A stretch of DNA of 62,596 nt, counting the filler. It is 9 parts of 9 records of this genome, joined end to end, with 100 filler letters (N's around TTAATTAATTAA, not from the genome) between each part and the next. Parts side by side here need not be neighbours in the genome. Positions count along the whole stretch, not along the records: positions 14,322 to 20,884 come from SRR31147125_3130; 8 more parts are not named here. One strand, given 5' to 3'. Of the stretch, positions 7,947 to 61,197 are shown in pieces. The translations under genes were made by a program, and so were the position numbers. The first letter of the stretch is position 1; each line of letters opens with the position of its first letter. The notes under the pieces were generated by a model. That model was given only the letters and a program-made list of their open reading frames with translations. It was not told the origin of the DNA and ran no database searches.

Positions 7947-8046
7947 NNNNNNNNNNNNNNNNNNNNNNNNNNNNNNNNNNNNNNNNNNNNTTAATTAATT
8001 AANNNNNNNNNNNNNNNNNNNNNNNNNNNNNNNNNNNNNNNNNNNN
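7947..8046. other. Artificial contig linker
   Basis: N-run + TTAATTAATTAA (stops in all six frames) + N-run, 100 nt. Confidence 0.97.
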
Positions 8047-11503: not shown

Positions 11504-14221
<2,718 letters not shown>

Positions 14222-14321
14222 NNNNNNNNNNNNNNNNNNNNNNNNNNNNNNNNNNNNNNNNNNNNTTAATTAATTAANNNNNNNNNNNNNNNNNNNNNNN
14301 NNNNNNNNNNNNNNNNNNNNN
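14222..14321. other. Artificial contig linker
   Basis: N-run + TTAATTAATTAA + N-run. Confidence 0.97.
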
Positions 14322-14355
14322 CAGGTGGTCCCTGGTTCGAGCCCAGGTGGGACCA
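14322..14355 (+). tRNA. 3' half of a tRNA (truncated by contig start; anticodon not visible)
   Basis: CAGGTGGTC-CCTGG-TTCGAGC-CCAGG-TGGGACC-A gives the T-arm and acceptor 3' strand. From memory it resembles Bacteroidota tRNA-Ile2/Met(CAT), but identity cannot be read. Confidence 0.8.
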
Positions 14356-14377
14356 CAAGGTTAAAATCCTGAATATC

Positions 14378-14408
14378 AAGCACTTGAATACCAATCAAGT
14401 GCTTTTTT
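14378..14408 (+). terminator. Intrinsic terminator after tRNA
   Basis: AAGCACTTGA-ataccaa-TCAAGTGCTT followed by a T-run. Confidence 0.75.
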
Positions 14409-14789
14409 CATTTTCTACCTTTTACTAAAATTTGCCTAAAAAACGGAAAAGTGGGTCAATTTAGGGTCATTATTATGGCATTGACCTGGTAATATATCTT
14501 TTCGTAATAATGAAGCTTCAATTAGTATTGAACTAAGAAGAAACTCAGGAACTATAGCCAAATCTATCTTATTCATTTCCCGCAAACCAACAAGCAGCAA
14601 AGCTTCTATGGTAAGAAAAAATGGGAACACCTCTGTGATGTTGTACTTCGCTTTGAAGATGGGGTTGTTAGTGTAGAGAAGAATCGGTTTGGGAAGGTTG
14701 GGGAGTATACGATATAGATTATATCGTTCTGGTTTTTATAAAGTGCCGTAATTAAATATCTTTATATGTCAAGCAAAAGATAATAAATT

Positions 14790-15248
14790 ATGTATAAGTT
14801 TTTTGTTCTTGCATTTATATGTCTGTTATCAGCTATTCTTCTCTTTAGAAGATACAATAACGGAATGGGAGCACCATTAGGCTCTTTTCGAAAAAAGATA
14901 TTATATATTTTAGCACTAATATTTTTCGTTGCTTTTATTATTCTTCTGAACAAAGGATATTATTATTCAGATATTCAGCATCATAAACAGTTAATCAGTG
15001 AACTTCAAATAGCTCAATCAGAATTAATTGATATATATAGTTCAAATAACCAAATATCCAATGATGAACTTATTGTTAAAAGAAAAGAAATTACGGAATT
15101 AGCAAATCGAGGAATAAAGGATTCTATTGATATGGATACTCTTTTGCAAATAAGTGAATTCATTACCAGATATTATGTGTTGGAAGATGAGATGAATCAA
15201 AGAAAAGACTCTTTGAGTGTAGTATTACAAAAAAAATTATTGATATAG
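14790..15248 (+). CDS. Hypothetical membrane protein (2 N-terminal TM helices plus helical domain)
   Basis: 152-aa ORF, two hydrophobic segments then a charged helical region; convergent with the pAgo operon. Confidence 0.6.
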   Translation: MYKFFVLAFICLLSAILLFRRYNNGMGAPLGSFRKKILYILALIFFVAFIILLNKGYYYSDIQHHKQLISELQIAQSELIDIYSSNNQISNDELIVKRKEITELANRGIKDSIDMDTLLQISEFITRYYVLEDEMNQRKDSLSVVLQKKLLI

Positions 15249-15386
15249 GGAAAATAACTACGCAGTTAAATGAAAACAATTATAAAGAGTGGGATACTTA
15301 TATAAATATAATTACAAGTATACTTAGTGCCTTTATTGCCTTTGTTATCGCTTTTACTTTTAAAAATAGACTTTTAGGATGATTAT

Positions 15387-16511
15387 TTAAATACCTAAAT
15401 TCTTATTGATCTCTGAAATGGTATCTTTTTCCCAGGTTGAAAAATTTGTATGATTATTTCTTGAAATATCCCATGCCTGATTTAAATACTGAGCAATAGT
15501 TTTTATTTCTGCTAACTCAGAGTTATACATGTTTAGGTCAATATCTTGACAAAAACCAAATATTTCGACTACTAATTTTTCTAACAAGTCATCTGAAAAA
15601 ATAATATCATAAGTAGGTATCTTTGGGTAATTTATTAACTGTTCAAATGAATTCCAAGCACTTAGAATGCTTTCAGATTCATCGTCGTTACCAATTAGCT
15701 TTAACATTTTAATTATTGCTCGTGTCCTAGCTTCGTCTGCTGGATGAGATTTGTAATAATTGTATACCTGAGCCTTGCTATGGCTTATTGTGGTTAACTT
15801 CATGTTCGTCCATGCAAAAGCAGATCCAGTTAAATAAGTAGCAATTAAATCACATACAAACTCTTCATACCAGGAATCCGTCCATAAATTCAAGGTAGTT
15901 TCCAGCCTGTCATAATCACCGTCTCTGTTCTCATCTAAAGCAACACTCATTTCAATGGTAAAATGTTCTTCTATTTCTTGAAGAAATCGACTAGTCAAAG
16001 CACCATAATATTGCTCAAAAATCAGATGTCCAATTTCATGATACAAGTCTGGTAGATTGAGTAAACTATCCTCTTCCCAAAATGGAACTGCAATAATATT
16101 TTCATAGGGAACAGCCCAGTAATAATTGTCAGAATTGCTGATTGTTGATATCAATGGAGGGCTTGATAATAGGTTTGAATCTTCATAAATTTTTTCTACA
16201 ACCACTTTAAAGAAATGGTCTCCACATCCATAGTTATTAATAGGTTGAATTCTATATAATTCTAAATAACCTAAATCTTGATTAAATTTGCTGTAGTTTG
16301 ATAGGTTGTTTGCTAGAAAGAAGTTAATTTCCAAATCACCAGAAGAGATGACGTTAGATACTTTTGTCTCCAGTTCCTTTAATGATTCCATTGTCTCCAT
16401 AACGAAATCATCTTTAATATCATCATGATGATCTCCATTGTCAATTCTGACAATCATTTTCTGTATTCTTGTTAACAGGTCGGTATATAATGCTCTGGTA
16501 AAATTTATCAT
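15387..16511 (-). CDS. Putative zinc metallopeptidase (gluzincin/M48-like motifs), last gene of the pAgo operon
   Basis: LYHEIGH (HEXXH, 16026-16040), downstream WYEEFVCD (E..xD third-ligand motif) and SHPADEAR (HP...R); ATGA overlap with the upstream gene. Confidence 0.72.
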   Translation of the reverse strand: MINFTRALYTDLLTRIQKMIVRIDNGDHHDDIKDDFVMETMESLKELETKVSNVISSGDLEINFFLANNLSNYSKFNQDLGYLELYRIQPINNYGCGDHFFKVVVEKIYEDSNLLSSPPLISTISNSDNYYWAVPYENIIAVPFWEEDSLLNLPDLYHEIGHLIFEQYYGALTSRFLQEIEEHFTIEMSVALDENRDGDYDRLETTLNLWTDSWYEEFVCDLIATYLTGSAFAWTNMKLTTISHSKAQVYNYYKSHPADEARTRAIIKMLKLIGNDDESESILSAWNSFEQLINYPKIPTYDIIFSDDLLEKLVVEIFGFCQDIDLNMYNSELAEIKTIAQYLNQAWDISRNNHTNFSTWEKDTISEINKNLGI

Positions 16512-16951
16512 TCTGAAATATTTCGCATTTTTCTAAACAAGTATGACCTTTCATTATCAAGAACACCGATTATCGTATCAAGCGACTTAAACTGAACTTT
16601 TAATAATGCCTTGTTTTGTTTTAAGTATTCAAGAAGATTTTTTAATTCTTGTTTTAGTTCTGGATTCTTACTTATCTGAGTTGTATATGCCTTGTTTTCT
16701 GCTAACATCTTAATATCTGCATTTGACTTTCCTTCTTCAATTAATTGTATTATGCCTTCGATAAACTCAATTAGTTTGTCTTTTGAGCTCAGATAATCAT
16801 TTTCTCCAATTTTTAATTTAGGATATTTTGTGGTTGAATCCTCTTCTTGTAAAAGAGAGTGTTTTTTTACTGTAATTGATGCATTATTGATATCATCAGT
16901 TAACTTCGATATTCGATTGTATCTTTTTGATATGTAACCCAGTTCACTCAT
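16508..16951 (-). CDS. Hypothetical alpha-helical protein (147 aa) in the pAgo operon
   Basis: ATG at 16951 lies 7 nt after the Ago stop; its stop overlaps the next start (ATGA 16508-16511); no recognisable motif. Confidence 0.7.
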   Translation of the reverse strand: MSELGYISKRYNRISKLTDDINNASITVKKHSLLQEEDSTTKYPKLKIGENDYLSSKDKLIEFIEGIIQLIEEGKSNADIKMLAENKAYTTQISKNPELKQELKNLLEYLKQNKALLKVQFKSLDTIIGVLDNERSYLFRKMRNISE

Positions 16952-16958
16952 GATTATT

Positions 16959-19348
16959 TTATTTATTTTCAACGCTTGTAACTTCATCAACTTGTTCTAA
17001 TGCTATTTCAGAATTTTGGTGAGCAAAAGAACGAATTAGAGTATCCACAATTTTTAGTGTAACAGGAAGGGAATTAGGTCTATCTGGCGCAGAGAAAGCA
17101 AGATTTGATTGATGAAAAATATCCTCAAGTACTTTAATGAAATCAGCATCTCCATAGGTTTGAGTTATATGAAGTGGGTTTGATGATCCTGGTATTGAAT
17201 ATGGAAAACCCGTATTAAATAGGAATGCTTCTTTATCGTTTAGTAACTTGTATTTTCCAGCACTTACATTTTTATACTTAGAATAATCATTGGTTATTCG
17301 GGCAGCCCGAACAGAGAACACGGATTGTTTGTTGACATCAACTACAGCTTTATTCAGATTTGAATTATTTATTATTCCATCAGATGCCAGTTCCTGTATA
17401 ACTTCATCAAGGGCTTTATCTTCTTCCCCGAAACTCCTGCCATCCCTTAATATTACTATTCCATTCGGGTCTTTTGCATATAAAGGGATATGTCTTTTCA
17501 AATTTTTAAGCAGAACCTTTTTAATGGTTCCAGAACTAATTTTTTCATTGCGAAATGTTCCGGTTTTTCTCGGAACATCGGAATAAGTAAATACTATATG
17601 TTCACCATTTTTATAAAAGAAACAGAAACCAGCATAATAATCGTGGGCATCTATCCCTATATAAATGTCATAGTTTAAGTTATCTGATAAACTATAAGGC
17701 CATTTATAATTTACAATCAGTAATTCGAAGAATAAATAATTTAAATATGAGCTAAATACCCTTTCATCTTTTCTCCTGACCTTATATTTTACACTTCCAT
17801 TATTTTCAATTACAGGTTTTAAAAACCTTTGTAATTGAGTAGCACTGGCACATTGAAACCGTAGTTTAGGAAAGAATTTTTTCTTAACACAGTCATGTAT
17901 TCCTTTTAGCACACTGCTTAATTCAATATTGTGATCTGGCAGAATTAGTATTGCACCTCCTTCATTAACCTCATATTTCTGAATACTTTTTTCAATTTCT
18001 TTGAACTGTTTATAGGCACTGAACTCAGTAATATCGTTATATGGAATTAGGATAAAATCTTTTAGCTGAGGTGCAAGTTGTTGAATTGGCTGAAGTAAAT
18101 AATGCCTTACACTTTTGGCAAAATCAATGGTTAGCGATTCAGGGTAAAACAAATATTGTGGCTGGAATGGTCTTTTATCTAAAATGCCACAATTGTATAA
18201 CATCTGCTTTCTGAGTTTCGGGAAGTTATTTAGGTTAGAACCATTTTTTGATTGCCCCGATGGGTTAAGGATTTTGTTCGAAGCATATTTCAATTTTGGA
18301 ATGAAAAATTTTGGCAATGCTTCATTTAATGGTTTATTATCAATATTCAATTTAGTACCATTAAATGTTAGGTTGGAAAAGTATTTCTTTTGAAACTGTG
18401 AAAGATATTGAAACCTTTCCGAAGGGTCATTAATAGATTTTCCATGTATTCCTGCATGACCTGCATCTTCAGCACTATGTATCAGCTTTGCTAAACAAGA
18501 TGCTCCATTAAATATCTTGGTTTGGTGGGGATAAGTATAGAGTAATGCCTTACAATCTTGTTCAATAGGAGAAATTATTTTTCCATATTTCTTAATCTCC
18601 TGATTTTTTATGTAGTCCAGCACAATATGAAATTCCTTGAATCATCAGAAAAGGATTGCTCACTAATAGGTTTTCCAAACCCTTTAACTTCGACTATATA
18701 CCAATCATTACCATTCTGATAGAGCGCACGTTGACCATTGTAAACACTATTTATTATTTGTTGATTTGCTCCATTAATTCTTTCATTAAGAAATTGTTTA
18801 TCAGCATATTTATAAGCTAAATCCAGTATAATATAAAACTCCCCACTATTGGATGTTATTAATTTATAATTGAATCCGGGAAAAATATCGGTTTCAGTTG
18901 GTTGAGCTTGGAATAAAGGAGAACGTTTATGGAAGCTTGTATTACTAAATTTCCATAAATCAGGTGTTTGGGTCAATTGGCTTCTGATTGAAAAGTCCAG
19001 AAAACTTCTTGCTAAATCAAAGGTTGATTTATTTAAATCTTTAAAATCAAGTGTCCCGGTGATATCTGTTTCATGAATTTTCACATTAGAAGGAACTAGT
19101 CTGACTTCTTTATTTGTAACTTGTTTTGAAGCATCAATAGCAATATACTTTTTACCTTTCTGATAGAAAGTTGAAACGGGACCTTTAGTATCCCTTGCCA
19201 ATGACATTAACAAAAGATTCCAATTCTTATTGTTTAGTTTAGGGTCACTTGAATACTCATCTAAATCAACATGAACCAGACGATATTCCATATTTAACTC
19301 AGATAAATTTCTAAGCTTGTACCAATTGAGTATATTTTGCTTCATCAT
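16959..19348 (-). CDS. Long prokaryotic Argonaute (N-L1-PAZ-L2-MID-PIWI), about 796 aa when rejoined; frameshift in PAZ between 18608 and 18641
   Basis: PIWI motifs YIGIDAH, RNEKIS, IVILRDGR, PGSSNPL, SLPVTLKIVD (DEDD tetrad); MID HDCVKKK...FQC...KWPY. The N-terminal ORF 18608..19348 (NWYKLRNLSELNMEYRL...GFNYKL...ILDLAYKY) continues into VLDYIK after a 1-nt shift. Confidence 0.9.
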
Positions 19349-20321
19349 ACAAGAATTTATTCATCAGTAAATGTTCACACAACCTGTTAAACTTGCAAAA
19401 ATGACAAGTACTGGGTTTATCTGTCATTGGGAAATCATCGACATTCAGTTCTTCGAACTTTTTTCCTTCCGTTAATAGAATTTCATCACCGCTGTTCAAG
19501 TAGATGTAATCTACTGTTTTGCCAATAACTTCTTTATTAAAAGGATGATATTTAGTTTCTCCGTTCCATAGGTTAACTTCAAACATTGAAATATCTTCTG
19601 CTCTTATTTGAGTAGCCCTGTTCTCCCTAACTTTTGTCCGATTTTCATCTAATATTGTTATACCAATAATTGCCAGTTGTCTGGAGTAATCAGTTAAAGC
19701 ACTTTGAGAGACTTTCCAGTCTATTACTACAGGTTTATTATTGATATAACATAGCAAGTCAATTTGTGGGGATACCCTTATCCCATCAAAATTAAATGCT
19801 TTACCCTGAACATTTGGTGCCAGAAAGGAAGCTTGCCTTAAAAAATCGAGCAAGTTTATATTCTCACTGACAATAAAGATATCTGGGATACTTAGAATAA
19901 CATTTTCAATGTTGGAATAAACTTGTTCTATGTCATCCTCTGAATATTTCTGACCACTTTCATGTATTTCAAGAATACAATATGCATCTCCTGCCTTTGT
20001 TTTACTTACCCCTTTGTCCCTATATGTTTGGCTTTGCGAAAAGATAAACTGTTCTTTTGCCATTTTTACTGCCTCTTGTGCAAAATAGCTAAAATCCAAC
20101 TTCTGTTTATTCGATATAGCAGGAACAATGAGTTTCTCCATAATTTTATCAATTACAGAGCCTTGCCACATAAATAAGTTTTGAGAACTTTTAAGCTCAA
20201 AGACTTTACGCCGAAATGGATTGGTAAAATGATGGGAAGGTGCAATTTGGGCAAAGTAATATTGCCTGCTACACCTTCTTAGCATCATTAATGCTGAATA
20301 TGACCATCCATTTTTTGCCAT
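19311..20321 (-). CDS. Cas4/AddB-like PD-(D/E)XK nuclease with a 4-Cys Fe-S staple
   Basis: WSYSALMMLRRCSRQYYF (Cys1), PQIDLL (motif II), VVIDWK (motif III), YSRQL, C-terminal TCHFCKFNRLC (CxxCxxxxxC); overlaps the Ago start by 38 nt. Confidence 0.88.
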   Translation of the reverse strand: MAKNGWSYSALMMLRRCSRQYYFAQIAPSHHFTNPFRRKVFELKSSQNLFMWQGSVIDKIMEKLIVPAISNKQKLDFSYFAQEAVKMAKEQFIFSQSQTYRDKGVSKTKAGDAYCILEIHESGQKYSEDDIEQVYSNIENVILSIPDIFIVSENINLLDFLRQASFLAPNVQGKAFNFDGIRVSPQIDLLCYINNKPVVIDWKVSQSALTDYSRQLAIIGITILDENRTKVRENRATQIRAEDISMFEVNLWNGETKYHPFNKEVIGKTVDYIYLNSGDEILLTEGKKFEELNVDDFPMTDKPSTCHFCKFNRLCEHLLMNKFLYDEAKYTQLVQA

Positions 20322-20326
20322 GTGAC

Positions 20327-20884
20327 TTATTCGTTATATAATTCTCCTAATCTTGTTAAGTATTTATTAAGAGCTTTATCATTTCTGAACAATCCATTTG
20401 CCCTTGAACTAGGCTGTCCACCTCCATATTTAAAGGATCTTTCCTGATTTTGTTTTCGGAAAGAAGGCTGAACACCCGATAACTGCAATTTTGAGTTGTT
20501 CACTTCTATCATCAGTGTTTCAAACGTTTTCCGAATTGCTTTTTCGCTTTGCCCAAATCCTATTTGCAATTTGAGTAACAACTTCTTAAGTCCATGTATA
20601 GGGATACTGTTCGGGAAGATATCATCATGTTTAATCTCCTCGATAACTCCAACAGTCAATCCGGATATTGCACTTAACTCCTTATCTTCTATGCCATTCT
20701 CAGCAGATGTTTTGCTAATCAATTCTCCCAAAGAGTTTGATTCAATAGTATCGAATAATTTCTCTACTAGCCTATCTCTTGCTGGGATACCCATACTAAT
20801 TGAAGGTGCAGCAGAAAAAACGATATCTGATTCAACATCCTGAATGTTTGAATTAAACAACGATTTACTCTTTTTAAGTAAAAA
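20327..20884 (-). CDS. XRE/Cro-like HTH-containing protein (5'-truncated)
   Basis: Frame is open to the contig end. LGELISKTSAENGIEDKELSAISGLTVGVIEEIK resembles an XRE HTH. Stop lies 5 nt before the nuclease start. Confidence 0.55.
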   Translation of the reverse strand, partial: FLLKKSKSLFNSNIQDVESDIVFSAAPSISMGIPARDRLVEKLFDTIESNSLGELISKTSAENGIEDKELSAISGLTVGVIEEIKHDDIFPNSIPIHGLKKLLLKLQIGFGQSEKAIRKTFETLMIEVNNSKLQLSGVQPSFRKQNQERSFKYGGGQPSSRANGLFRNDKALNKYLTRLGELYNE

Positions 20885-20984
20885 NNNNNNNNNNNNNNNN
20901 NNNNNNNNNNNNNNNNNNNNNNNNNNNNTTAATTAATTAANNNNNNNNNNNNNNNNNNNNNNNNNNNNNNNNNNNNNNNNNNNN
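20885..20984. other. Artificial contig linker
   Basis: N-run + TTAATTAATTAA + N-run. Confidence 0.97.
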
Positions 20985-23900
20985 TTTGTAAAGTTGATTT
21001 GAACGGTAACATCATCTTCTACATCTTCAGTAAGTTCGAGTGTGAACTCAACGTTGCTACCTTCTGTAGCCGAAGCATCAGAGATTGTTACAGCAGCATT
21101 GTCGTTATCAGTAATTGTACCTAATCCACTGTCGTCGGAGAATATGATATCTCTTCCAATGAAATTATCTTCAGATAAATCAATAGTAAATGTTTCGTCT
21201 TCTTCTAAAATATCATCACCATTAACGGTAATTGAAATCGTTTGAGATTCTCCGCTTGTTCCGCTAAAGGTTAATGTTCCTGAATCGGAAACGAAATCTG
21301 TATCTTCTGTTGTTACATGGTTTGTGGTGTAAGCAACGGTAAACGAACCATCGGTGTTTTTACCGCTTTGAGTAACAATAAATTCATACAGAACAGTTGC
21401 AGTACCATCTAATTCAGTTTTACTTATATTATCAATAGATAATGTTGCCTGATCGTTATCCTGGATAAGCCCCACAGCCTGAGTTGTTGCTCCACCTCCT
21501 GATAATGTAATATTTTGGCTATTGGCAACTAAGCTGCCAACTTCACCAATTAACTGTTCAGTTGGTTCAACTGAGTCATCGTCGTTAATGGTTACATCAA
21601 TAGTATGTGGTCCATCGTTCCCGGCTCCAAAGTCAAGCGTTGTGGCACCAATTGCAGTGTAATCTTCTAATGCTCCCGCCAATGCAGAGTCATCAGAAGT
21701 GTTGAAACTTACTGTAACTGCATTTTGTATTACATGGTCAGAACTAACCGTAAACGTTCCTGTTCCGTTGCCTTCGTTTACATCGAATCCTGCAATTGAA
21801 ATAGTTGCATCATCATCGTCGTTTATTATTCCGGTAGCCGTACCGGTTCCAATAGTTATATTTTGATTATTATTATCGACAATTGTAATACTGGCAGTAA
21901 ACGATTCCTGAGGCTCGGTAACGTTATTGCCAACAACGTCTACAGGTATATTCACACTAAAGTTTCCAGCCAGAATGGTATATTCCTGTGCAAGCTGTTC
22001 GTTAAAATCTTGATTATCGAGGGCAGTGCCTTCAGCAGTTGTAAAGCTAATTATAACATCCTCCTGAGCTTCAACATCCATCGAAGCTACGAAGTTATGG
22101 CTTATGGTTCCATCGGTTTCTTCAACAGTAAAACCTGCAAGATTAATTTGAGTAACCGGATCATCATCAACAATACTTCCAATACCTGTATCTTTAGTAA
22201 ATGAACTTGAGCCAGTACAAGTAATTGAGGTTAGGTCAACTGAGAATGTTTCAGTAACAGGTTCCGAAATAATATCGTCAACAATTGTTATCGAAATAGT
22301 TTTTTCAGTGCCAGAAATCGAACCTGCTTCAAAAGTTACCACGTCAGTTTTTGCAGTGTAGTCACTTGGTGCTTCTGCAATGTCGTTAACGAATCCATCA
22401 GAGGTTGTGTAATTAACTGTAAGTTCATCCTGAATATTTCCGGTTAATGTTACTGTGAATACAGCAACACCCGCAGCAACATCTTCAGTAACTAATGTAT
22501 CGTTTATAGCAATACTTGCATGTTCGTCATCGGTAATTGTTGCAATTGCAGCAACAGTGGCTTCTCCATTGCTTAATGTTACAGCTTGCGATGCTGCTTG
22601 AAGATTACTTAATACACCATTGAAGGTTTCAGATGGCTCAACCCAATTGTCGTTAATAATGGTCACCTCAACGTACTGGATATTATCATTAGTACTTCCA
22701 AAATTAAGAGTAGTTGTTCCAACTGCTGTATAATCATCGCCGGCTGTTGCTTCGTCAGCAATATCAGCTGTTGCAAAGTCAACACTAAATTCATTTTGAA
22801 CATCCCTGCTTAGCGTAATCGTAAATCTTACCGTAACAGTTCCAACTTCCGATTCATCAGTTATGAATCCATCAATAGACAAGATAGCTGGATCATTATC
22901 TTCTATTGTATAAATTGCATCTGCATCGACAACAGATACCTGCTGTGCATTTGCATTTGTAAGCGTAATAGCTCCATTAAATATTTCAGTAGGTTCAGTA
23001 ATTACATCTCCCAGAACATTAACCGGAATATCTACTTCCTGGCTTCCGGCAGGAATAGTAACAATAGTATTCGACTGAGCTGTGTAATCATTTCCATCAA
23101 GTGCAGTACTATCAGAAGTTGAGAAATTAACCGTTACTTCTTCTTCGGCTGCAATATTGGTTGTTAGTTTATAATCTATTGTTTGTGTAGCATCGGTCTC
23201 TGTAATTGTACTGTCGTGCAAGGTTATTTCCATTTCATCGTCGTCGATAATTGTAGCCGTAGCTTCATCGCCGTTGCTTGTAAATACAACCTGCTGTCCG
23301 TTAAGGGTATTCAATGAAATCCTTCCGTTAAATGTTTCGATTGTTTCAGCAATATCATCACCTGCAATGGTCGTAGCCGATACATTCACATTATCAGTTG
23401 AATTTGCTGGTAAGGTAACACCAACTCCTGATTGGGCTGTGAAGTCATCAGTTGAAACTGCAGTAGGTGTTGCATCTTCCTGCGATGAGAAGACTAATGT
23501 AATTTCGTGTTGAGATGCGATATCTCGACTTACATAGAAATTCTGAGTTTGAGCAATGTCGGTTTCCGCAACGGTGAATGCATTTAAGGTAAGATGAACA
23601 GTATCTTCAACGTTAATAGTACCCAAACCTTGAGCATCGAAAATAGAAACACCACTTTGGCCATTATTATCTAATCCAGATAAATTAATATGGTAGGTTT
23701 CAGTTGCTTCTGCCACATTGTCGTTCAGAATTGAAACATCTATTTCTTTAGTTGTACCATCGGTTGAACCAGCTTCGAAAGTAATTGCATCGTCAACAGC
23801 TGTGTAATCGCTTGTTGCTACAGCTGATACATTTTCCGATTGGTAATTGAACGAAATTGCATCTTCGATATTACCGCTAAGTGTTACTGTAAATGTTGCT

Positions 23901-26788
23901 GTAACCGGCTCGGTTCCTTCTGTAATCTCAACATCATCAATTGCCAAAGTGGCATTGTCATTATCATTGATTGTACCGGTTGCCTGCATTGAAGCTCCGC
24001 CTCCGTTAAGAGTTACATTCTGGCTAAGAGCATCAGTCAGATTATTTATTATTCCGTAAAGAGTTTCGGTAGCTTCAGCAATGTTGCCATCTAAAATTGG
24101 GATAGTAACATTTTGAATTAAATCATTTTCTCCACCAAAGGTTAATGTCTCAGTAGTGTTTGTGTAATCTGTTGCAGCCAAAGCGGTATTATCCGAAGTT
24201 GCAAAATCAACTGTAAATTCGCCCTGAACGGCATTGTTTAATGTAACAGTGAAATCAGCACTTGCGGTACCTTCAGTGACTATGAAATCGTCAATAGTAA
24301 GAACAGCACTATCATTGTTGGTAATTGTACCTACTGCTAAACTATCGGCGAAAGTAATTTGGTTTAATATTTCAACTGGTAAACTACTACACTGAATATT
24401 ACTTAATGAAACTTTGAAGAATTCATCGAGTTCAACTTTTTCATCACCATTTATAGTAATCGAAATGGTTTTAGTTACATCATTCTCTCCATCAAAGCTT
24501 AAAGTGCCAGATGCTGCAACAAAGTCACCATCGGCAGTAGTCGCAGTACTGTCTAAAACGGTATAATCAACCGTTATAGGCGTAGTCGCTTCAACAGGTC
24601 TGCTAAGTGTAACATCAAATACCAATTGTTTTGAACCAGAATCACCTTCTTCTATAGGAGCATCAGCAATACCAAATGTCGAAGAATCGTCGTTGGTGAT
24701 AATTGCAGTTGCCGAATTATTAGTAACGGTTACTACCTGATTTACTCCGGTTGTTGTGGCAGGTGTAAGGTTCATTGTGAACACCTCATTCTTTTCAACC
24801 ATTTCATCACCATTCACCAAAACCGTAATTGTTTGTTCTTCTTCTGGAGTACCTACAAAGTTTACAGTACCACTAACACCCGTGTAGTCGGTAGGTGAAT
24901 ATGCCGAACTGTTACTGGAATAAAATATCATTGAGTAGCCACCAACTACCTCAATGTTTGATTGTGTTATTGTAAATGTAAAGTTTGTTGTTCCCGAGTT
25001 TGTTTCATCTAAAGTAAGATCAGCAATTGCTACGGTTGCTTCATCATTGTCTTCGTTAACAATAGTAATGTCGTCCGGATTAAGACCATCGTAGTTCGAA
25101 TCTGTAGTTCCGGTTGTATTTATTGTATTTTCTACAGTGAAAGTAATATCGCCGTCAACTATGCCATCGTCGACACCTGTTACTGTAACGGTTTGTGGAG
25201 TGTCCCAGTTTTCGTGCGTAAATGTTAATGCCGGTTGGTCAACAGTACCTTCGCCAATATCTTTACTTGTAACATCAATAACAACAACGAAATTTTCAGT
25301 ATCGGTAGCCGGTTTGCTGGTTAAAACAACGGTGTACTGTGCTGTTGCAGCATTTTCGGTTACGGTTAAATTGGTTGGAGTAACTACAAAACCTGAAGCA
25401 TCATTGTCGATATTTGTAACTGAAACGGTTTCTGCAAATAATCCACTGTATTTAGGATCAATTGAAGTGGCATTACTAATATTAATATGGTAATTTACAT
25501 CTCCATCATCAATTTCATCATCTAAACCTCGCAGAGTTACAGTTTGAACATCATCCCAGTTAGCCGAGGTGAAAGTAAGTGTTGTTGCACTTGTAATTTC
25601 CCCCTCTGTTAAGTCTCCAGAATCAATTGAAAGATCAAAACTTACATCGTTTACAGGTTCTGTATTCAACTTAATTGTGAAGGTTGTTGTTCCAAGATTT
25701 TCTGTGGTATTTCCTGCAACACTTGCAACCGTTATTCCTGCATCGTCGTTATCAACATTGGTTGCTTTTACAATTGCATCATGGGCATTTTCGTAACCGG
25801 AAAGATCGTGGGTTGCTGCCTGATTAATTGCTAAAGTAACATTGTACGAAATATCGTCGTCGTCAACATCGTCGTTAACTCCTGTTATTCGAATGGTGTG
25901 ACCGGTATCCCAGTTGGAGTCATTAAAGGTGAGCTGAGAACCAATAGAAATTGTTCCTTCTCCTGTATCGCCACTACTAACATCAATAACTACTGTTCCG
26001 GTAGGAGCCGAGCCCAGCGTTACAGTAATTTCTTCAAAAGTTTGACCTTCGGTAGTTGTTACGGTATCGGTGCTAACAAGAATTGCACCGTCTTGTGCAT
26101 CAATGGTAATATCAAAACTACAGGTTTCTGTATTTTCGTTTTCATCTTCCGCAATATAAGTAACAGTAGTGGTACCAACGTTAAAGTCATCGGTACTTAA
26201 TTCGTGAATTCCGGAAGCCTGGGCTGTTTGAATTGTTGCCCCTGAATATGAATATGTCAGTTTTTCTACCGTGCAATTGTCATTGTAAGTTGGTGCTGTA
26301 ATACCTGTAACAGTTTTAAAAGTAGCTCCTGAAGATGCAACTATTTCAATAATGTCAGCCGGGCAACTAATTCTTGGATCTTGATCGTCACCAACAACAA
26401 CATTAAATTCCACTGTTCCTGTATTAGGAGTAGTAGCATGGTCGGCTACTGACCAGGTAACGGTAGTTGTTCCTTTTTGGAAGACTTGCCCCGCAAGTGT
26501 TGTATTTGGTGCAATAACAGCAGTTGAAGCTGGCCCGCTTAAAGTATAAGTAATTGTCGGACTATCGTCACAATTATCGGTTGGATTCCATGCGTCTCCA
26601 CTTAGGGTATAAGTACAAAGATCTGTATCAACAACCACATTTCGATCGGTAAGATCGTCGAGGGTAGGAGCCTGTTCGTCAACAACTGTAACTGTTGTTG
26701 AGCATTCAGCATCTAAACCAGCCTCGTCGGCAACTTTTAAGTAGATAGTGTTATCTCCAATCTCAGTACAATCATAGGTTAATGTTGC
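20985..26788 (-). CDS. Giant repetitive surface protein/adhesin fragment (HYR domains plus tandem Calx-beta repeats), open at both ends
   Basis: More than 1900 codons with no stop across the contig. HYR-like (GTTTVTY...CSFDITI) units are followed by many Calx-beta units (V.F.T.D.TA....DY....GTL.F....I.I.I..D...E..ETF...L...A.GTI.DND). Confidence 0.9.
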
Positions 26789-26790
26789 AG

Positions 26791-26890
26791 NNNNNNNNNN
26801 NNNNNNNNNNNNNNNNNNNNNNNNNNNNNNNNNNTTAATTAATTAANNNNNNNNNNNNNNNNNNNNNNNNNNNNNNNNNNNNNNNNNNNN
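26791..26890. other. Artificial contig linker
   Basis: N-run + TTAATTAATTAA + N-run. Confidence 0.97.
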
Positions 26891-32112: not shown

Positions 32113-32212
32113 NNNNNNNNNNNNNNNNNNNNNNNNNNNNNNNNNNNNNNNNNNNNTTAATTAATTAANNNNNNNNNNNNNNNNNNNNNNNNNNNNNNNN
32201 NNNNNNNNNNNN
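32113..32212. other. Artificial contig linker
   Basis: N-run + TTAATTAATTAA + N-run. Confidence 0.97.
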
Positions 32213-38409: not shown

Positions 38410-38509
38410 NNNNNNNNNNNNNNNNNNNNNNNNNNNNNNNNNNNNNNNNNNNNTTAATTAATTAANNNNNNNNNNNNNNNNNNNNNNNNNNNNNNNNNNN
38501 NNNNNNNNN
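38410..38509. other. Artificial contig linker
   Basis: N-run + TTAATTAATTAA + N-run. Confidence 0.97.
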
Positions 38510-47393: not shown

Positions 47394-47493
47394 NNNNNNN
47401 NNNNNNNNNNNNNNNNNNNNNNNNNNNNNNNNNNNNNTTAATTAATTAANNNNNNNNNNNNNNNNNNNNNNNNNNNNNNNNNNNNNNNNNNNN
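47394..47493. other. Artificial contig linker
   Basis: N-run + TTAATTAATTAA + N-run. Confidence 0.97.
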
Positions 47494-55768: not shown

Positions 55769-55868
55769 NNNNNNNNNNNNNNNNNNNNNNNNNNNNNNNN
55801 NNNNNNNNNNNNTTAATTAATTAANNNNNNNNNNNNNNNNNNNNNNNNNNNNNNNNNNNNNNNNNNNN
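55769..55868. other. Artificial contig linker
   Basis: N-run + TTAATTAATTAA + N-run. Confidence 0.97.
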
Positions 55869-56576
55869 GAGACCGGCGGCATTGTCGGGGCGGAAGCGCT
55901 GGCGCGGTGGGACAATCCGGTACTGGGTTCGGTGCCACCCACCACTTTTATCCGCGCCGCGGAGCGTTCGGGCATGATCGGGCAGTTGACCGAGATTTTG
56001 TTCAAGAAAATGCTCGCCGAGTTCGGCGACTGGCCGAGCCATATCTTCGTGTCGTTCAATCTGTCGGCTCACGACATCTGCTCTCCCGAGCGCATCCTCA
56101 AGCTGATAAGCATCGCCGACCGCAAGGGCATCGATCCACGGCGATTGACCTTCGAGATCACCGAAACGGCTGTGATGCACGATTCCGAGCGCGCCCAGGA
56201 ATCGCTGAAGCTTCTCAAGCATTTCGGAGCCAAGATCGCACTCGACGATTTCGGCACCGGACATTCAAGCCTTTCCTATGTGCACACCCTGCCGCTCGAC
56301 AGGGTCAAGGTCGACCGCAGCTTCGTGGCCGAGATCGAGAACAGCCCCGTGACCCGCGCCGTTGTGCAGACCATCCTCGATCTGTGTACGAGCCTTGAAC
56401 TCGACTGCATCATCGAGGGCGTCGAGACCAAGGGGCAACTCGAACTGATGCAGGAAATGGGTTGCACGACCTTCCAGGGCTTCCTGTTTTCGCGGCCGCT
56501 TGACGGCGTGGCGGCACGGCGCTTCCTCGTGGCCTCCGGCAACAGCGAAGAACCACCGGCGAAAAAGCGCGCCTAG
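55869..56576 (+). CDS. EAL-domain c-di-GMP phosphodiesterase (C-terminal part)
   Basis: GAEALARW, FEITET, ALDDFGTGHSSL, VKVDRSFV, IIEGVET, FQGFLFSRP. Confidence 0.93.
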   Translation, partial: ETGGIVGAEALARWDNPVLGSVPPTTFIRAAERSGMIGQLTEILFKKMLAEFGDWPSHIFVSFNLSAHDICSPERILKLISIADRKGIDPRRLTFEITETAVMHDSERAQESLKLLKHFGAKIALDDFGTGHSSLSYVHTLPLDRVKVDRSFVAEIENSPVTRAVVQTILDLCTSLELDCIIEGVETKGQLELMQEMGCTTFQGFLFSRPLDGVAARRFLVASGNSEEPPAKKRA

Positions 56577-56726
56577 CGGACCAGCCGACAGCGCTCGCAT
56601 CACATGACCGCTCACGGTTTCGCGCGAAGCTTGCATTCGCTTTCCATGCGTTTGATTGTAGCTTGATCGCGTTCTGCCTCAGCGCGAACGGCCCGCCTAT
56701 CCAACACCCTTCAAGAGATAGATCAG

Positions 56727-57602
56727 ATGACTGACACGTCCGAATACGTTCCGCCCAAAGTCTGGACATGGGATGAGCCGAATGGCGGCAGTTTCGCCAG
56801 CACGAACCGGCCGATTGCCGGCTCCACTCACGACAGGCAATTGCCGCGCGGCGATCACAAGCTGCAGCTGTATTCTCTTGCAACCCCGAACGGCCAAAAG
56901 GTCACCATCATGCTCGAGGAACTGCTGGCGGCCGGCCACGACGCCGAGTATGACGCCTGGCTGATCCGCATTGGCAAGGGCGACCAGTTCGGTTCGGGAT
57001 TTGTCGAGGTCAATCCGAATTCCAAGATACCGGCGATGATGGATTACGGAACGGCAATGCCGATTCGTCTGTTCGAAAGCGGCTCGATCCTTTTGTACCT
57101 TGCCGAGAAGTTTGGCGCGTTTTTGCCGGCCGACGCCTCTGGGCGCGCCGAAACGCTCAACTGGCTGTTCTGGCAGATGGGCAGCGCACCCTATGTCGGC
57201 GGCGGCTTCGGGCACTTTTATGCCTATGCGCCAACCCAGCAGGAATATCCGATCAACCGCTTCACAATGGAAACCAAACGTCAGCTCGACGTGCTCGACC
57301 GTCAGCTCGCCGAGCGAAAGTTCATTGCCGGCGACATCTACACCATTGCCGATATCGCCATCTTTCCCTGGTATGGCGGGCTGGTCCTCAACCGCTCCTA
57401 TGATGCGGCCGAGTTCCTCGACGCGGCGAGCTATAAAAATGTCATGCGTTGGGCCAATGAAGTCGATGCCCGGGAGCCGGTAAAACGCGGTCGTTGTGTC
57501 AATGCAGCAGGCGGACCGGATGAAGAACAACTGCACGAGCGTCACTCGCCCGCCGATATCGATCCAGTCCTCGCCATACGCAAGGCGTCCGGAACGGTTT
57601 AG
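56727..57602 (+). CDS. yghU: Glutathione-dependent disulfide-bond oxidoreductase (YghU-like GST)
   Basis: YVPPKVWTW, NRPIAG, LYSLATPNGQKV, NPNSKIPA, FESGSIL, WLFWQMGSAPY, LHERH. Confidence 0.88.
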   Translation: MTDTSEYVPPKVWTWDEPNGGSFASTNRPIAGSTHDRQLPRGDHKLQLYSLATPNGQKVTIMLEELLAAGHDAEYDAWLIRIGKGDQFGSGFVEVNPNSKIPAMMDYGTAMPIRLFESGSILLYLAEKFGAFLPADASGRAETLNWLFWQMGSAPYVGGGFGHFYAYAPTQQEYPINRFTMETKRQLDVLDRQLAERKFIAGDIYTIADIAIFPWYGGLVLNRSYDAAEFLDAASYKNVMRWANEVDAREPVKRGRCVNAAGGPDEEQLHERHSPADIDPVLAIRKASGTV

Positions 57603-57618
57603 GTCGGCTATTGCAGCA

Positions 57619-58152
57619 CTACTGCACCGGAACCGGTGTGGTGGCCTCTACTGCACCTTCCGCGCTGTCCGGCCTGTCTGAGAAATCTTGTTCGAGGTCC
57701 CAGACCACATAGGTCATTGCCATGACGAGAAGCACGGACAGGGCTGTAATGATCAGGTGATAGCGACGGATCTTGTCGGGCGCCAGCGGCTGGCTGCCGG
57801 CGGTCTCGGTAACGTCCTGCGGCTTGTCGGCTTTGACGGCGCGGCCGCGTGGCAGGAAGATCGGGCGGTAATTGCCCTTGATCATCTGGATCTTCACCGG
57901 GACGAAGTAGCTTTCGTCCTTGTGGAATGCGTCGAGCGCCTTGCGCAGGCGGTTAGCCACCACGCGTATCACCGGATCGGTAGACGGATCGAAACTGGTA
58001 GGCCGCCCGAATGCGTCGACGGCGACGGTATAGGCCTTGATCTTGTCGCCACGGCCGGCGAGTTCTTCCCTGACGACGTAGTCGAGAAAAGCAGTGAGCT
58101 GCGGCGACGACCGGAATGCCGGATAGGAAAGTATTACGTTAAGCGAATACAA
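57619..58152 (-). CDS. Membrane-anchored protein with an N-terminal winged-helix-like domain of the type found in alphaproteobacterial TolB/TPR regulators
   Basis: FRSSPQLTAFLDYVVREELAGRGDKIKAYTVAVDAFGRPTSFDPSTDPVIRVVANRLRKAL; one TM near the C-terminus. Confidence 0.65.
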   Translation of the reverse strand: MYSLNVILSYPAFRSSPQLTAFLDYVVREELAGRGDKIKAYTVAVDAFGRPTSFDPSTDPVIRVVANRLRKALDAFHKDESYFVPVKIQMIKGNYRPIFLPRGRAVKADKPQDVTETAGSQPLAPDKIRRYHLIITALSVLLVMAMTYVVWDLEQDFSDRPDSAEGAVEATTPVPVQ

Positions 58153-58346
58153 TATGTCGTCAGTGTTTTTGATAATATTTGACGACGAAGCATATGAAAC
58201 GCCGTTTTCTATTCCAATTTCGCCCAGTTTTGTTCTCCCGCACAGAACAACAGGACAAGCCTATTCGCTTCATTCTACGGCAGGGAGCGGCTAGTGGCAG
58301 CTAGATAAACAAAAAGTTACCTAAATATACGGAGTGCTTTTCCCGT

Positions 58347-61179: not shown

Positions 61180-61197
61180 GGAACGAAAGGCAGTTTC

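What the first reader, a model, noticed from the sequence alone, without database searches (positions are those of the whole stretch)
16959..18623. pAgo has an intact DEDD slicer tetrad but a non-canonical 5'-guide pocket and C-terminus
Seen: the catalytic positions GID, NE, RDG and KIVD are all acidic. The MID pocket reads HDCVKKK...FQC (His in place of the usual Tyr). The Lys of the usual 'K.GG.PW' motif is not in place (LLIVNYKWPY). The protein ends in an acidic tail (EIALEQVDEVTSVENK). Established: canonical pAgos use Y-K-Q-K plus a buried hydrophobic C-terminus and Mg2+ to bind the guide 5'-phosphate. Inference, from memory and unverified: these deviations recall the DNA-guided RNA-cleaving clade (PliAgo, MbpAgo, RslAgo), so this could be a programmable nuclease with unusual guide or target preference.
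Basis: partly seen in the sequence, partly recalled or inferred. Interest (0 to 1): 0.7.

Follow-up and report, generated by a model that had tools for sequence, protein, structure and literature searches.

The report
RNA-cutting Argonaute of a known group

Summary
They align residue for residue with the DEDD tetrad and HK pocket of MbpAgo (PDB 8xih/9wmd, E 4e-132).

The protein is a long-A pAgo of the PnyAgo/HpeAgo/MbpAgo group of DNA-guided RNA cleavers. In a tree it sits inside a fully supported clade holding PnyAgo and HpeAgo.

It is not of the PliAgo/RslAgo type. That type lacks H/K at the pocket positions. H-K-Q is a published variant of the standard pocket: Mg2+-dependent, with normal 10'/11' cutting (PMC9360449, PMC9122594). 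Extended C-termini are published for both D-R groups, and an acidic autoinhibitory one for VbAgo (PMC13219720).

The stated coordinates cover only the C-terminal 554 aa. The N-terminal 246 aa lie in 18608-19348 in another frame. An independent assembly of a run holding this DNA has one extra base at 18630 that joins the frames into about 796 aa.

The gene sits in a conserved cassette: HTH protein, Cas4-like nuclease, pAgo, small helical protein, HExxH protein.

Verdict: new member of a known kind, modest interest.

The parts
16959..18623 (-). pAgo, C-terminal part (end of PAZ, L2, MID, PIWI, acidic tail); 554 aa as listed, the ORF given in the finding
   Evidence: PADLOC pAgo_II PDLC02383 positions 225-761 of 767, E 9e-203. 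PDB 8xih_A residues 264-776, E 4.4e-132. No Pfam family at E <= 0.1.
18608..19348 (-). pAgo, N-terminal part (N, L1, first part of PAZ); 246-aa ORF in another frame
   Evidence: PADLOC pAgo_II positions 1-221, E 9e-64. PDB 8xih_A residues 1-236, E 1e-44. Its homologous part lies directly upstream of, and adjacent to, the C-terminal match in 40 of 41 related loci.
18611..18641 (-). Interval in which the frame change must lie. At 18630 an independent contig reads A>G plus one inserted G (+ strand).
   Evidence: Sequence and frames. Logan contig of run X1, 8111 bases, word depth 33.8, one substitution and one insertion over 18300-18900.
17043..17651 (-). Catalytic tetrad codons: D325 (17649-17651), E360 (17544-17546), D394 (17442-17444), D527 (17043-17045). 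Also K524 (17052-17054), three residues before D527.
   Evidence: D325, E360, D394, K524 and D527 are invariant in A1 (21 rows). Tetrad D/E/D/D in 110 of 118 representatives and references. The Lys three residues before the last Asp is called conserved in D-R pAgos (PMC9360449).
17703..17897 (-). MID 5'-end pocket residues: H243 (17895-17897), K247 (17883-17885), Q257 (17853-17855), N305 (17709-17711), K307 (17703-17705)
   Evidence: H243 and K247 are invariant in A1, and K307 is nearly invariant.
16962..17018 (-). Extended C-terminal tail after the last helix (residues 536-554), net acidic
   Evidence: Published for the class (PMC13219720).
19311..20321 (-). Cas4-like PD-(D/E)XK nuclease, 336 aa, overlapping the pAgo start by 38 nt
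   Evidence: PADLOC Aga_Cas4-like_Nuc E 2e-55. Pfam PDDEXK_1 E 3e-7. C17, C306, C309, C315, D188 and K203 in 39 of 39 rows, D201 in 38 of 39. Homologue in 38 of 41 loci.
20327..20860 (-). 177-aa protein with a Cro/C1 (XRE)-type helix-turn-helix in its middle part. The contig ends 24 nt upstream.
   Evidence: Homologue in 35 of 41 loci. Pfam HTH_26 in 5 of 21 members and HTH_3 in 3 of 21. AF2 model pLDDT 75. The Foldseek rows shown (best E 0.016, prob 1.0, none at E <= 0.001) are almost all XRE/Cro-C1-type HTH proteins.
16508..16951 (-). Small helical protein, about 147 aa from the conserved ATG at 16949-16951 (the listed ORF starts at a TTG at 16990)
   Evidence: Homologue in 39 of 41 loci. 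No family in Pfam, NCBIfam or PADLOC beyond chance-level rows.
15387..16511 (-). 374-aa HExxH protein (H158, E159, H162, E217), a putative zincin-type metallopeptidase; 4-nt overlap with the small gene
   Evidence: Homologue in 40 of 41 loci. HExxH kept in 37 of 38 copies that cover the site. Invariant residues. AF2 pLDDT 90.9. Weak fold likeness to M48 peptidases: BepA Z 7.2, ZMPSTE24 Z 7.1, 3c37 Z 6.6.
14322..14404 (+). Contig start: tRNA-like 3' piece (T-arm and acceptor end) followed by a terminator-like hairpin (14378-14404)
   Evidence: Read from the sequence. Hairpin. ARAGORN calls no tRNA here because the piece is cut.

Best explanation
The locus encodes a catalytically competent long-A prokaryotic Argonaute of the PnyAgo/HpeAgo/MbpAgo group.

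By homology, it most likely loads short 5'-phosphorylated single-stranded DNA guides in an HK(Q)-type MID pocket with Mg2+. It then cuts complementary RNA between guide positions 10 and 11 with its DEDD PIWI site. Its extended acidic C-terminus lies outside the pocket and may dampen activity.

The apparent split into 246-aa and 554-aa ORFs is most likely a one-base error of the deposited assembly. The real product would be about 796 aa.

The gene is the third of five co-oriented genes on a 6.6-kb contig: XRE-type HTH protein, Cas4-like Fe-S nuclease, pAgo, small helical protein, HExxH protein. In relatives a sigma-70-family gene precedes these, and the contig end cuts that position off here.

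Shown here: homology, residue conservation, clade placement, gene order, and the base difference between assemblies. Inferred: guide and target type, cleavage register, Mg2+ dependence, the role of the tail, and the roles of the neighbours.
For: Sequence homology. PADLOC pAgo_II covers both ORFs colinearly (positions 1-221 and 225-761 of 767; E 9e-64 and 9e-203). The MbpAgo chains 8xih_A/9wmd_A cover residues 1-236 and 264-776.

Active site and pocket. D325/E360/D394/D527 align with MbpAgo D566/E601/D635/D768, and H243/K247 with H482/K486. These residues plus K524 are invariant in 21 aligned relatives.

Clade. In a 67-row tree, the window pairs with a Draconibacterium MAG protein (SH-aLRT 100). 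The pair lies inside a 25-row clade (100) that also holds HpeAgo (P0008) and PnyAgo (L033). The 10 rows with a PliAgo-type pocket are separated by a 96 branch.

Biochemistry of the group. PnyAgo, HpeAgo and MbpAgo are DNA-guided RNA nucleases. They cut at 10'/11', shifting to 11'/12' with 5'-OH guides. Guide binding by PnyAgo depends on Mg2+ (PMC9360449 section 6 and passages; PMC9122594; PMC13346755).

Frame. A Logan contig of run X1 (8111 bases, depth 33.8) has one added base at 18630. That lies inside the only interval where a frame change can join the ORFs. The break falls inside the PAZ domain (MbpAgo PAZ is 182-305), not at a domain border. rpoB on another piece of the same record is also frame-broken. 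The N-terminal and C-terminal matches lie adjacent and colinear in 40 of 41 related loci, and the relatives found are mostly 770-830 aa.

Cassette. Neighbours are conserved in 35 to 40 of 41 loci, and a sigma-70 homologue in 37 of 41.
Against: The protein is only 34-47% identical to full-length relatives. It is 45% identical to HpeAgo P0008 and 41% to PnyAgo P0065. The only closer relative is a 438-aa fragment at 64%.

Pfam's Piwi model does not reach E 0.1 on this protein.

The frameshift is present in the record as given. Run X1 may be the very sample the record was assembled from, so the correction rests on one alternative assembly, not on reads I could inspect.

Which residue supplies the fourth Lys of the pocket is unresolved: V304 by gapless register, K307 three residues later.

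The sigma-factor gene that accompanies the group is not on this contig.
Confidence: 0.78

Rival explanations
1. The gene is a true pseudogene. The frameshift at about 18630 is real in the organism, so only fragments are made (N/L1/half-PAZ and half-PAZ/MID/PIWI) and the system is decaying.
For: The record as given has the frame break. The only contrary evidence is one alternative assembly, possibly from the same sample.
Against: That contig has word depth 33.8 and differs at exactly the site that restores the frame. Nothing else in either ORF is degraded: all invariant family residues are kept. An essential gene (rpoB) in the same record is also frame-broken, which points to assembly errors. 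All four neighbouring cassette genes are intact.
Confidence: 0.13
2. It is an active pAgo of this clade but with a different specificity from its characterised relatives, for example appreciable DNA-target cleavage or tolerance of 5'-OH or RNA guides.
For: Identity to PnyAgo, HpeAgo and other full-length relatives is only 34-47%. The window and its Draconibacterium partner form their own branch. PnyAgo shows weak DNA cleavage, and all four D-R pAgos tested accept 5'-OH guides with a shifted cut (PMC9360449).
Against: It is bracketed in the tree by two strict DNA-guide/RNA-target enzymes. The pocket, the tetrad, K524 and the loop before E360 (aligned with MbpAgo Loop L2, 592-602) are conserved.
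Confidence: 0.07
3. It has the PliAgo-type new pocket: no Mg2+, first nucleotide stacked outside the pocket, cut shifted to 9'/10'. This is what the reader's grouping with PliAgo and RslAgo suggests.
For: V304 occupies the position that PMC9360449 equates with the canonical fourth Lys (PliAgo G542), by gapless alignment. The C-terminus is extended, as in PliAgo.
Against: H243/K247/Q257 are present where PliAgo-type proteins have A-x-(S/A/G/T/Q). P0263, which matches all twelve published PliAgo residue numbers checked, reads A/C/Q there. The window lies on the other side of a 96-supported branch from the ten PliAgo-type rows. The PliAgo match is E 4e-30 against 4e-132 for MbpAgo.
Confidence: 0.02

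Closest known systems
PnyAgo (Pedobacter nyackensis) and HpeAgo (Hydrobacter penzbergensis), the 'second group' of D-R pAgos (PMC9360449)
   Same: Same clade. Same HK(Q) pocket positions, DEDD tetrad and Lys three residues before the last Asp. Same upstream Cas4-like PD-(D/E)XK gene. The P. nyackensis locus L033 has the same gene order on both sides of the pAgo.
   Different: 41% (P0065) and 45% (P0008) identity over the 554-aa part. The window pairs with a Draconibacterium MAG protein on its own branch. The sigma-70 gene is not on this contig. At the third pocket position PnyAgo has K where the window has Q. Activity is untested here.
MbpAgo (Mucilaginibacter paludis; PDB 9WMD/9WMF/9WMH, and 8XIH by identical numbering)
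   Same: Best solved relative: E 4.4e-132 for the C-terminal part and 1e-44 for the N-terminal part, colinear. The tetrad and HK residues coincide. The stretches aligned to the MID beta-hairpin and PIWI Loop L2, both needed for MbpAgo activity, are present.
   Different: The hairpin region is two residues shorter, and there is a three-residue gap in L2. In the tree the Mucilaginibacter-type rows form a sister subclade, not the window's own. Guide-induced dimerisation of MbpAgo (PMC13346755 abstract) cannot be assessed here.
PliAgo / RslAgo, the 'first group' of D-R pAgos
   Same: Same class (DNA guide, RNA target), DEDD tetrad, Lys before the last Asp, extended C-terminus and upstream Cas4-like nuclease (PMC9360449). 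Two loci with a PliAgo-type pocket (L042, L043) also carry the small protein and the HExxH protein downstream.
   Different: The RHSY pocket has A/C/G at the canonical positions, needs no Mg2+ and cuts at 9'/10'. The window has H/K/Q. E is only 4e-30.
VbAgo (PDB 9V65 and others; PMC13219720)
   Same: DNA-guided RNA cleaver with DEDD. Its acidic extended C-terminus lies in the nucleic-acid channel in the apo state and is dispensable for 5'-phosphate binding, which needs Mg2+. The window protein also ends in an acidic extension beyond the last catalytic Asp.
   Different: VbAgo has a YK-type pocket (Y484/K488/Q497). It is distant: E 2e-19, PIWI part only. Whether the window's 27-residue tail autoinhibits is inference.
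HTH repressor plus zinc metallopeptidase switches (ImmR/ImmA, DdrO/IrrE, CapH/CapP); names and mechanism recalled, not from a call
   Same: The cassette holds an XRE-type HTH protein (177 aa) and a conserved HExxH protein (374 aa). DdrO and the CapH N-terminal domain are among the Foldseek rows for the HTH model.
   Different: The HExxH protein matches no Pfam peptidase family (1 of 21 members hits Peptidase_M48, at E 0.071). Its fold likeness is to M48 peptidases at Z about 7, within the noise range for helical models. The two genes are not adjacent. No cleavage is shown.

Membership tests
Long-A prokaryotic Argonaute with active PIWI | Full N-L1-PAZ-L2-MID-PIWI architecture | tested here: met
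   The two ORFs together cover positions 1-761 of 767 of PADLOC pAgo_II and residues 1-776 of the 795-aa MbpAgo chain. In the record they are in two frames.
Long-A prokaryotic Argonaute with active PIWI | DEDX catalytic tetrad | tested here: met
   D325, E360, D394 and D527 align with MbpAgo D566, E601, D635 and D768. They are invariant in A1.
Long-A prokaryotic Argonaute with active PIWI | Pfam Piwi domain (PF02171) match | tested here: not met
   No Pfam family at E <= 0.1. Only 5 of 120 listed relatives carry a precomputed PF02171 hit. The model is insensitive for this clade. PADLOC and PDB matches are decisive instead.
D-R pAgos, PnyAgo/HpeAgo/MbpAgo group | [quoted passage not shown] | tested here: met
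   H243, K247 and Q257. The fourth Lys is either K307 (nearly invariant) or absent, depending on register. The paper's alignment figure and supplement were not seen.
D-R pAgos, PnyAgo/HpeAgo/MbpAgo group | Placement in the clade of the characterised members | tested here: met
   A 25-row clade with SH-aLRT 100 holds the window, HpeAgo P0008 and PnyAgo L033 (quick IQ-TREE search on the C-terminal ~550 aa).
D-R pAgos, PnyAgo/HpeAgo/MbpAgo group | Lys three residues before the fourth catalytic residue (His in other pAgos) | tested here: met
   K524. Feature as stated in PMC9360449.
D-R pAgos, PnyAgo/HpeAgo/MbpAgo group | Preceded by a Cas4-like PD-(D/E)XK nuclease gene | tested here: met
   19311-20321. 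PADLOC Aga_Cas4-like_Nuc E 2e-55. Four Cys and the D...D-x-K motif are conserved.
D-R pAgos, PnyAgo/HpeAgo/MbpAgo group | Accompanied by a sigma-70-family factor gene | not testable with these tools
   The contig ends 24 nt upstream of the 177-aa gene. There is no match elsewhere in the window. It is present in 37 of 41 related loci.
D-R pAgos, PnyAgo/HpeAgo/MbpAgo group | DNA-guided cleavage of RNA at 10'/11' | not testable with these tools
   Needs protein and an in vitro assay.
D-R pAgos, PliAgo/RslAgo group | RHSY pocket with neutral residues (A479/C483/G542 in PliAgo) at the canonical positions | tested here: not met
   The window has H243/K247 where PliAgo-type rows have A and a non-basic residue. 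Only the G542 position is neutral (V304).
Cas4-like Fe-S PD-(D/E)XK nuclease (336-aa neighbour) | One N-terminal and three C-terminal Cys (C...CxxCx5C) plus a D...(D/E)xK motif | tested here: met
   C17, C306, C309 and C315 in 39 of 39 rows. D188 39/39, D201 38/39, K203 39/39. That this Cys pattern binds a 4Fe-4S cluster in Cas4/AddB is recalled knowledge.
Zincin (M48-like) metallopeptidase (374-aa neighbour) | HExxH with a downstream acidic third ligand | tested here: met
   H158, E159, H162 and E217 are invariant in A2. HExxH is kept in 37 of 38 copies and in three remote loci.
Zincin (M48-like) metallopeptidase (374-aa neighbour) | Family model or fold match | tested here: inconclusive
   Pfam: Peptidase_M48 in 1 of 21 members, at E 0.071. 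Foldseek: nothing at E <= 0.001, and 3c37_A at prob 0.6. VIA: BepA Z 7.2 (166 aligned), ZMPSTE24 Z 7.1, 3c37 Z 6.6. Atlas: Peptidase_U49/M48 clusters at 0.78-0.79, leads only.
Cro/C1 (XRE)-type HTH protein (177-aa neighbour) | Five-helix HTH domain | tested here: met
   The Foldseek rows shown are almost all XRE/Cro-C1-type HTH proteins, with prob 0.99-1.0 in most rows, TM (target) up to 0.83 and rmsd 1.7-2.0 A over about 61-66 columns for the best. Best E is only 0.016. Pfam HTH_26 in 5 of 21 members, HTH_3 in 3 of 21. NCBIfam PuuR HTH part at E 0.015.

The most novel reading that the evidence does not exclude
D-R Argonautes may not work alone. They may be the sensor/nuclease of a fixed multi-gene cassette containing an XRE-type HTH protein and a dedicated, unclassified HExxH (zincin-like) protein with its small helical partner.

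One reading is a protease-controlled switch, as in repressor/metallopeptidase pairs of other defence and damage-response operons. The peptidase would cleave the HTH protein on a signal such as single-stranded DNA or pAgo activity. That would turn on the nuclease, the pAgo and, in this group, a private sigma factor.

Alternatively, the peptidase is the downstream effector that shuts the cell down once the pAgo has found invader RNA.

The basis is co-occurrence. In 401 sampled Bacteroidota genomes, the HExxH profile and the pAgo profile hit the same six genomes, side by side. The pairing extends to PliAgo-type loci and to a still more remote pAgo.
Probability: 0.25. Interest if true: 0.6.

Novelty: new member of a known kind. 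Interest (0 to 1): 0.3.

Why it matters
DNA-guided RNA-cutting Argonautes are sought as programmable RNA tools, and only a few have been characterised. This one is a divergent mesophile-type member: 64% identical to its nearest known fragment and at most 47% to any full-length relative. It comes from a low-GC Bacteroidota-like contig, so it adds sequence diversity for enzyme mining, but no new principle.

The useful corrections are three. The 'odd' pocket and tail are group traits with published explanations. The gene is longer than annotated by the finding. The frame break is probably an assembly error.

The more open question is the natural role of D-R pAgos, which the source paper itself leaves open (PMC9360449). 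The tight linkage to an HTH protein, a small helical protein and an HExxH protein gives concrete candidates to test.

Tried and rejected
**Searches that gave nothing**
- Pfam and NCBIfam on the pAgo parts gave no usable family.
- The single-protein scan of genome contigs found no relative. The alignment-based scan was needed.
- No whole genome is held for the window.
- ARAGORN found no tRNA on the pAgo contig. The tRNA-like end is read by eye only.
- The promoter/terminator scan gave counts equal to shuffles (32 against 32.4, and 3 against 2.7). It was used only for the hairpin after the tRNA-like piece.

**Sequencing runs**
- No RNA holder was listed for the stretch.
- Runs X2 and X3 laid nothing.

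**Complex prediction**
- Sigma factor (L033) with the 177-aa homologue gave no verdict: scores 0.59, 0.01, 0.00, and the alignments were not used by the tool. This says nothing either way about an anti-sigma role.

**Fold searches**
- Foldseek on the 374-aa model found nothing at E <= 0.001.
- The VIA wide search was dominated by helical-bundle matches to residues 1-126. No IrrE/ImmA-type peptidase appeared among the 50 rows shown, which does not exclude one.
- Atlas named-family rows score under 0.9 and are leads only.

**The fourth Lys of the pocket**
- I could not settle which residue it is. The papers' alignment figures and supplements are not held. The MbpAgo structure paper's text names no pocket residues. 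Model coordinates cannot be inspected with these tools.

**Literature**
- Searches for an HExxH or peptidase partner of pAgos found nothing relevant: 'prokaryotic Argonaute'/'Cas4-like'/'metalloprotease', 'pAgo'+'HEXXH', 'pAgos'/'sigma factor'/'peptidase'.
- Fig. 1b and the supplements of PMC9360449 may show these genes and were not seen.
- '8XIH' occurs in no held paper. Its identity as MbpAgo rests on length and residue numbering only.

**Readings rejected**
- A natural split pAgo: the break is inside PAZ, and the two parts lie adjacent and colinear in 40 of 41 related loci.
- A long-B inactive pAgo: the tetrad is intact.
Full report
**What the window is**

The 62.6-kb window is not one molecule. 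Eight junctions of 44 N + TTAATTAATTAA + 44 N split it into nine pieces.

The finding lies on the piece 14322-20884 (6563 bases). Its GC is about 0.31-0.33, against 0.35-0.45 for most other pieces and about 0.59 for the last one. The rpoB and the giant repeat protein that flank it in the window are therefore not shown to be its physical neighbours.

The piece starts with what reads as the 3' end of a tRNA, followed by a terminator-like hairpin. ARAGORN does not call the cut piece.

**Checking the observation**

Pfam and NCBIfam see nothing in it. PADLOC's pAgo_II model matches at E 9e-203. The sequence search of solved structures gives 8xih_A/9wmd_A at E 4.4e-132, PliAgo (7r8f and others) at 4e-30 and VbAgo (9v65) at 2e-19. 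9WMD/9WMF/9WMH are the MbpAgo cryo-EM structures.

In that alignment D325, E360, D394 and D527 fall on D566, E601, D635 and D768. H243/K247 fall on H482/K486. These are the residues published as MbpAgo's tetrad and HK motif (PMC9122594; PMC13346755). The tetrad assignment is therefore correct.

**The gene is longer than the finding's coordinates**

The ORF just upstream (18608-19348, -) matches positions 1-221 of the same PADLOC model and residues 1-236 of the MbpAgo chain. The given ORF covers residues 264-776. Relatives are mostly single proteins of 770-830 aa. In 40 of 41 related loci the N-terminal match directly abuts the C-terminal one.

In the window the two ORFs overlap out of frame. 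A frame change can join them only between 18611 and 18641. The break falls within the PAZ domain (MbpAgo PAZ is 182-305), not at a domain border.

A Logan contig of run X1 (8111 bases, word depth 33.8) covers 18300-18900 in one piece. It differs from the window only at 18630, by A>G plus one inserted G on the + strand. By hand, that extra base carries the reading frame of the first ORF, after its residue 239, into the frame of the second ORF three codons before its first codon. The product would be about 796 aa.

X1 may be the sample the record came from, so this is an independent assembly, not an independent sample. rpoB on another piece of the record is also frame-broken (11504-13138 and 13111-14277), which fits an error-prone assembly. 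I put the odds of an intact gene at roughly 6 to 1.

**Which pAgo it is**

PMC9360449 (section 6 read whole; passages) describes two related groups of DNA-guided, RNA-cleaving ('D-R') pAgos.
- The PliAgo/RslAgo group has a new RHSY pocket with neutral residues (A479, C483, G542) at the canonical positions. [quoted passage not shown] Its guide binding is Mg2+-dependent and it cuts at the canonical 10'/11' site, shifting to 11'/12' with 5'-OH guides.
- MbpAgo belongs to the PnyAgo group (note added in proof) and is the 'HK subtype' (PMC9122594).
- HK is listed among natural variants of the YKQTNK motif in PMC6299218.

A search of 1.84 billion cluster representatives gave 355 hits at E <= 0.001. 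I took 117 of those hits together with named references (all of at least 700 aa, plus the P0001 fragment) and aligned them with the window protein, 118 rows in all. The pocket columns split cleanly: HK(Q/K) rows against A-x-(S/A/G/T/Q) rows. P0263 matches all twelve published PliAgo residue numbers I checked and reads A/C/Q at those columns.

The window reads H/K/Q, with D/E/D/D and K524.

A tree of 67 rows (quick IQ-TREE, C-terminal ~550 aa, rooted on ten PliAgo-type rows) shows the following:
- The window pairs with a 1.5-kb Draconibacterium MAG contig (SH-aLRT 100).
- The pair sits inside a 25-row clade (100) that also holds HpeAgo (P0008) and PnyAgo (L033).
- The PliAgo-type rows sit behind a 96 branch.

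The rows were chosen by me: 42 from loci and the window, 25 from the representative list.

But the protein belongs to the group whose pocket and cut site are conventional.

**The fourth Lys**

By gapless alignment, PliAgo G542 corresponds to V304. The paper equates G542 with TtAgo K457.

But N305 is invariant and K307 nearly invariant in the family. K or R stands at the 307 column in most rows of both groups. The paper writes the group's motif as HKQK. Whether K307 reaches the phosphate through a shorter loop cannot be decided without coordinates or the paper's figure.

**The tail**

After D527 come 27 residues, and the last 16 carry five acidic and one basic residue. The 20 relatives aligned carry tails of similar length, most of them acidic.

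PMC13219720 (passages; section 8) states that extended C-termini are predicted in both D-R groups. [quoted passage not shown] PliAgo's last 18 residues are dispensable. The tail is thus a class trait. Autoinhibition here is inference.

**Surroundings**

All genes of the piece except a non-conserved 152-aa membrane-like ORF are on the minus strand and tightly packed:
- A 177-aa protein.
- A Cas4-like nuclease. PADLOC gives E 2e-55, and four Cys plus D...D-x-K are conserved in 38-39 of 39 rows.
- The pAgo.
- A small helical protein whose conserved start is the ATG at 16951.
- A 374-aa protein with an invariant HExxH and a downstream Glu.

Against 41 related loci from genome contigs, homologues are present in 35, 38, 40 (N part), 39 and 40 loci respectively, always in the same order. 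A sigma-70-family gene lies upstream of the 177-aa homologue in 37 of 41 loci. Three of the four misses are short contigs, and the fourth is the Acidobacteriota outlier. In the window the contig ends 24 nt before that position.

PMC9360449 names the nuclease, an HTH regulator (PliAgo group) and the sigma factor (PnyAgo group). In the text I saw it does not name the two downstream genes. Its Fig. 1b and supplements were not available.

**The neighbours in more detail**

The 177-aa model (pLDDT 75) gives Foldseek rows that are almost all Cro/C1-type HTH proteins. They include HipB, ClgR, restriction-modification controller proteins, SinR, DdrO and the CapH N-terminal domain. Probabilities are about 1.0, but the best E is only 0.016. 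Pfam HTH_26 or HTH_3 hit a minority of members.

The 374-aa model is confident (pLDDT 90.9). It consists of an N-terminal three-helix bundle plus a helical domain with weak likeness to M48 peptidases. Pfam is silent. The Atlas gives only leads, to Peptidase_U49 and M48 clusters.

In 401 sampled Bacteroidota genomes, the HExxH-protein profile and the pAgo profile each hit six genomes. They are the same six, with the HExxH gene 0.4-0.6 kb downstream of the pAgo on the same strand.

Three of those loci were fetched. Two have a PliAgo-type pocket and one a still more remote pAgo. All three keep the order small protein, Cas4-like, pAgo, small protein, HExxH protein, with HExxH intact.

My counts were made independently of it.

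**How it most likely works**

Shown here: homology, residues, clade and gene order.

Inferred from the characterised relatives: the protein binds 16-20-nt 5'-P DNA guides with H243/K247/Q257 and Mg2+, pairs them with RNA, and cuts between positions 10 and 11 using D325/E360/D394/D527.

Inferred from context: the Cas4-like nuclease may make or trim guide DNA, as the source paper also suggests.

Speculative: the HTH protein and the HExxH protein may form a repressor/peptidase switch (recalled analogues ImmR/ImmA, DdrO/IrrE, CapH/CapP), or the peptidase may be an effector. A prediction of sigma factor with the 177-aa homologue gave no verdict.

**Verdict**

This is a real, probably intact, probably active D-R Argonaute. 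It is a new and fairly divergent member of a known, structurally solved group.

The 'non-canonical' label is mostly a matter of group-typical traits already explained in print.

Interest is modest for the pAgo itself. The conserved accessory genes are the part that could still teach something.

Noticed in passing
window 7947-8046, 14222-14321, 20885-20984, 26791-26890, 32113-32212, 38410-38509, 47394-47493, 55769-55868: The window is nine separate contigs joined by 44 N + TTAATTAATTAA + 44 N spacers. Adjacency across these joints means nothing. The last piece (55869-62596) has GC about 0.59 against 0.29-0.45 elsewhere, so the record may mix organisms.
   Followed up: partly
window 11504-14221: rpoB is read in two overlapping frames (11504-13138 and 13111-14277). 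The break lies in the conserved stretch just before the second ORF's ...[21 protein letters not shown]. An essential gene broken like this points to indel errors in the assembly.
   Followed up: no
window 14322-14404: The pAgo contig begins with a tRNA-like 3' end (T-arm and acceptor strand) and a strong terminator hairpin. The independent Logan contig appears to end at about the same place (worked out from the record coordinates). The cassette may sit next to a repeated tRNA gene, as genomic islands often do.
   Followed up: partly
window 15387-16951, and loci L002-L044: A small helical protein (about 147 aa) and a 374-aa HExxH protein follow the pAgo in 39 and 40 of 41 related loci. In 401 sampled Bacteroidota genomes, the same six genomes carry the HExxH protein and the pAgo, side by side. 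The pair also follows PliAgo-type and a more remote pAgo. Neither protein has a Pfam, NCBIfam or PADLOC family.
   Followed up: yes
L016:9104-10240 and G003:C1:32262-33389: One Chryseolinea MAG copy of the HExxH protein reads QEIGH instead of HEIGH. The Mucilaginibacter polytrichastri copy has one in-frame TGA inside the match. These may be decaying or mis-sequenced copies.
   Followed up: no
L033:10255-12366 (-): In Pedobacter nyackensis a PIF1-like helicase with an HRDC domain lies convergent, directly after the cassette. I did not check whether other loci have it.
   Followed up: no
window 20985-26638 (-): An ORF of more than 1900 aa made of many similar repeats, rich in D, T, N and E. It is cut where it meets the spacer at 20885-20984. 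It is probably a giant surface or adhesin-like protein and was not examined.
   Followed up: no
window 14790-15248 (+): A 152-aa ORF with a hydrophobic N-terminal part, opposite in direction to the cassette. It has no homologue in any of the 41 related loci, so it is not part of the system.
   Followed up: partly
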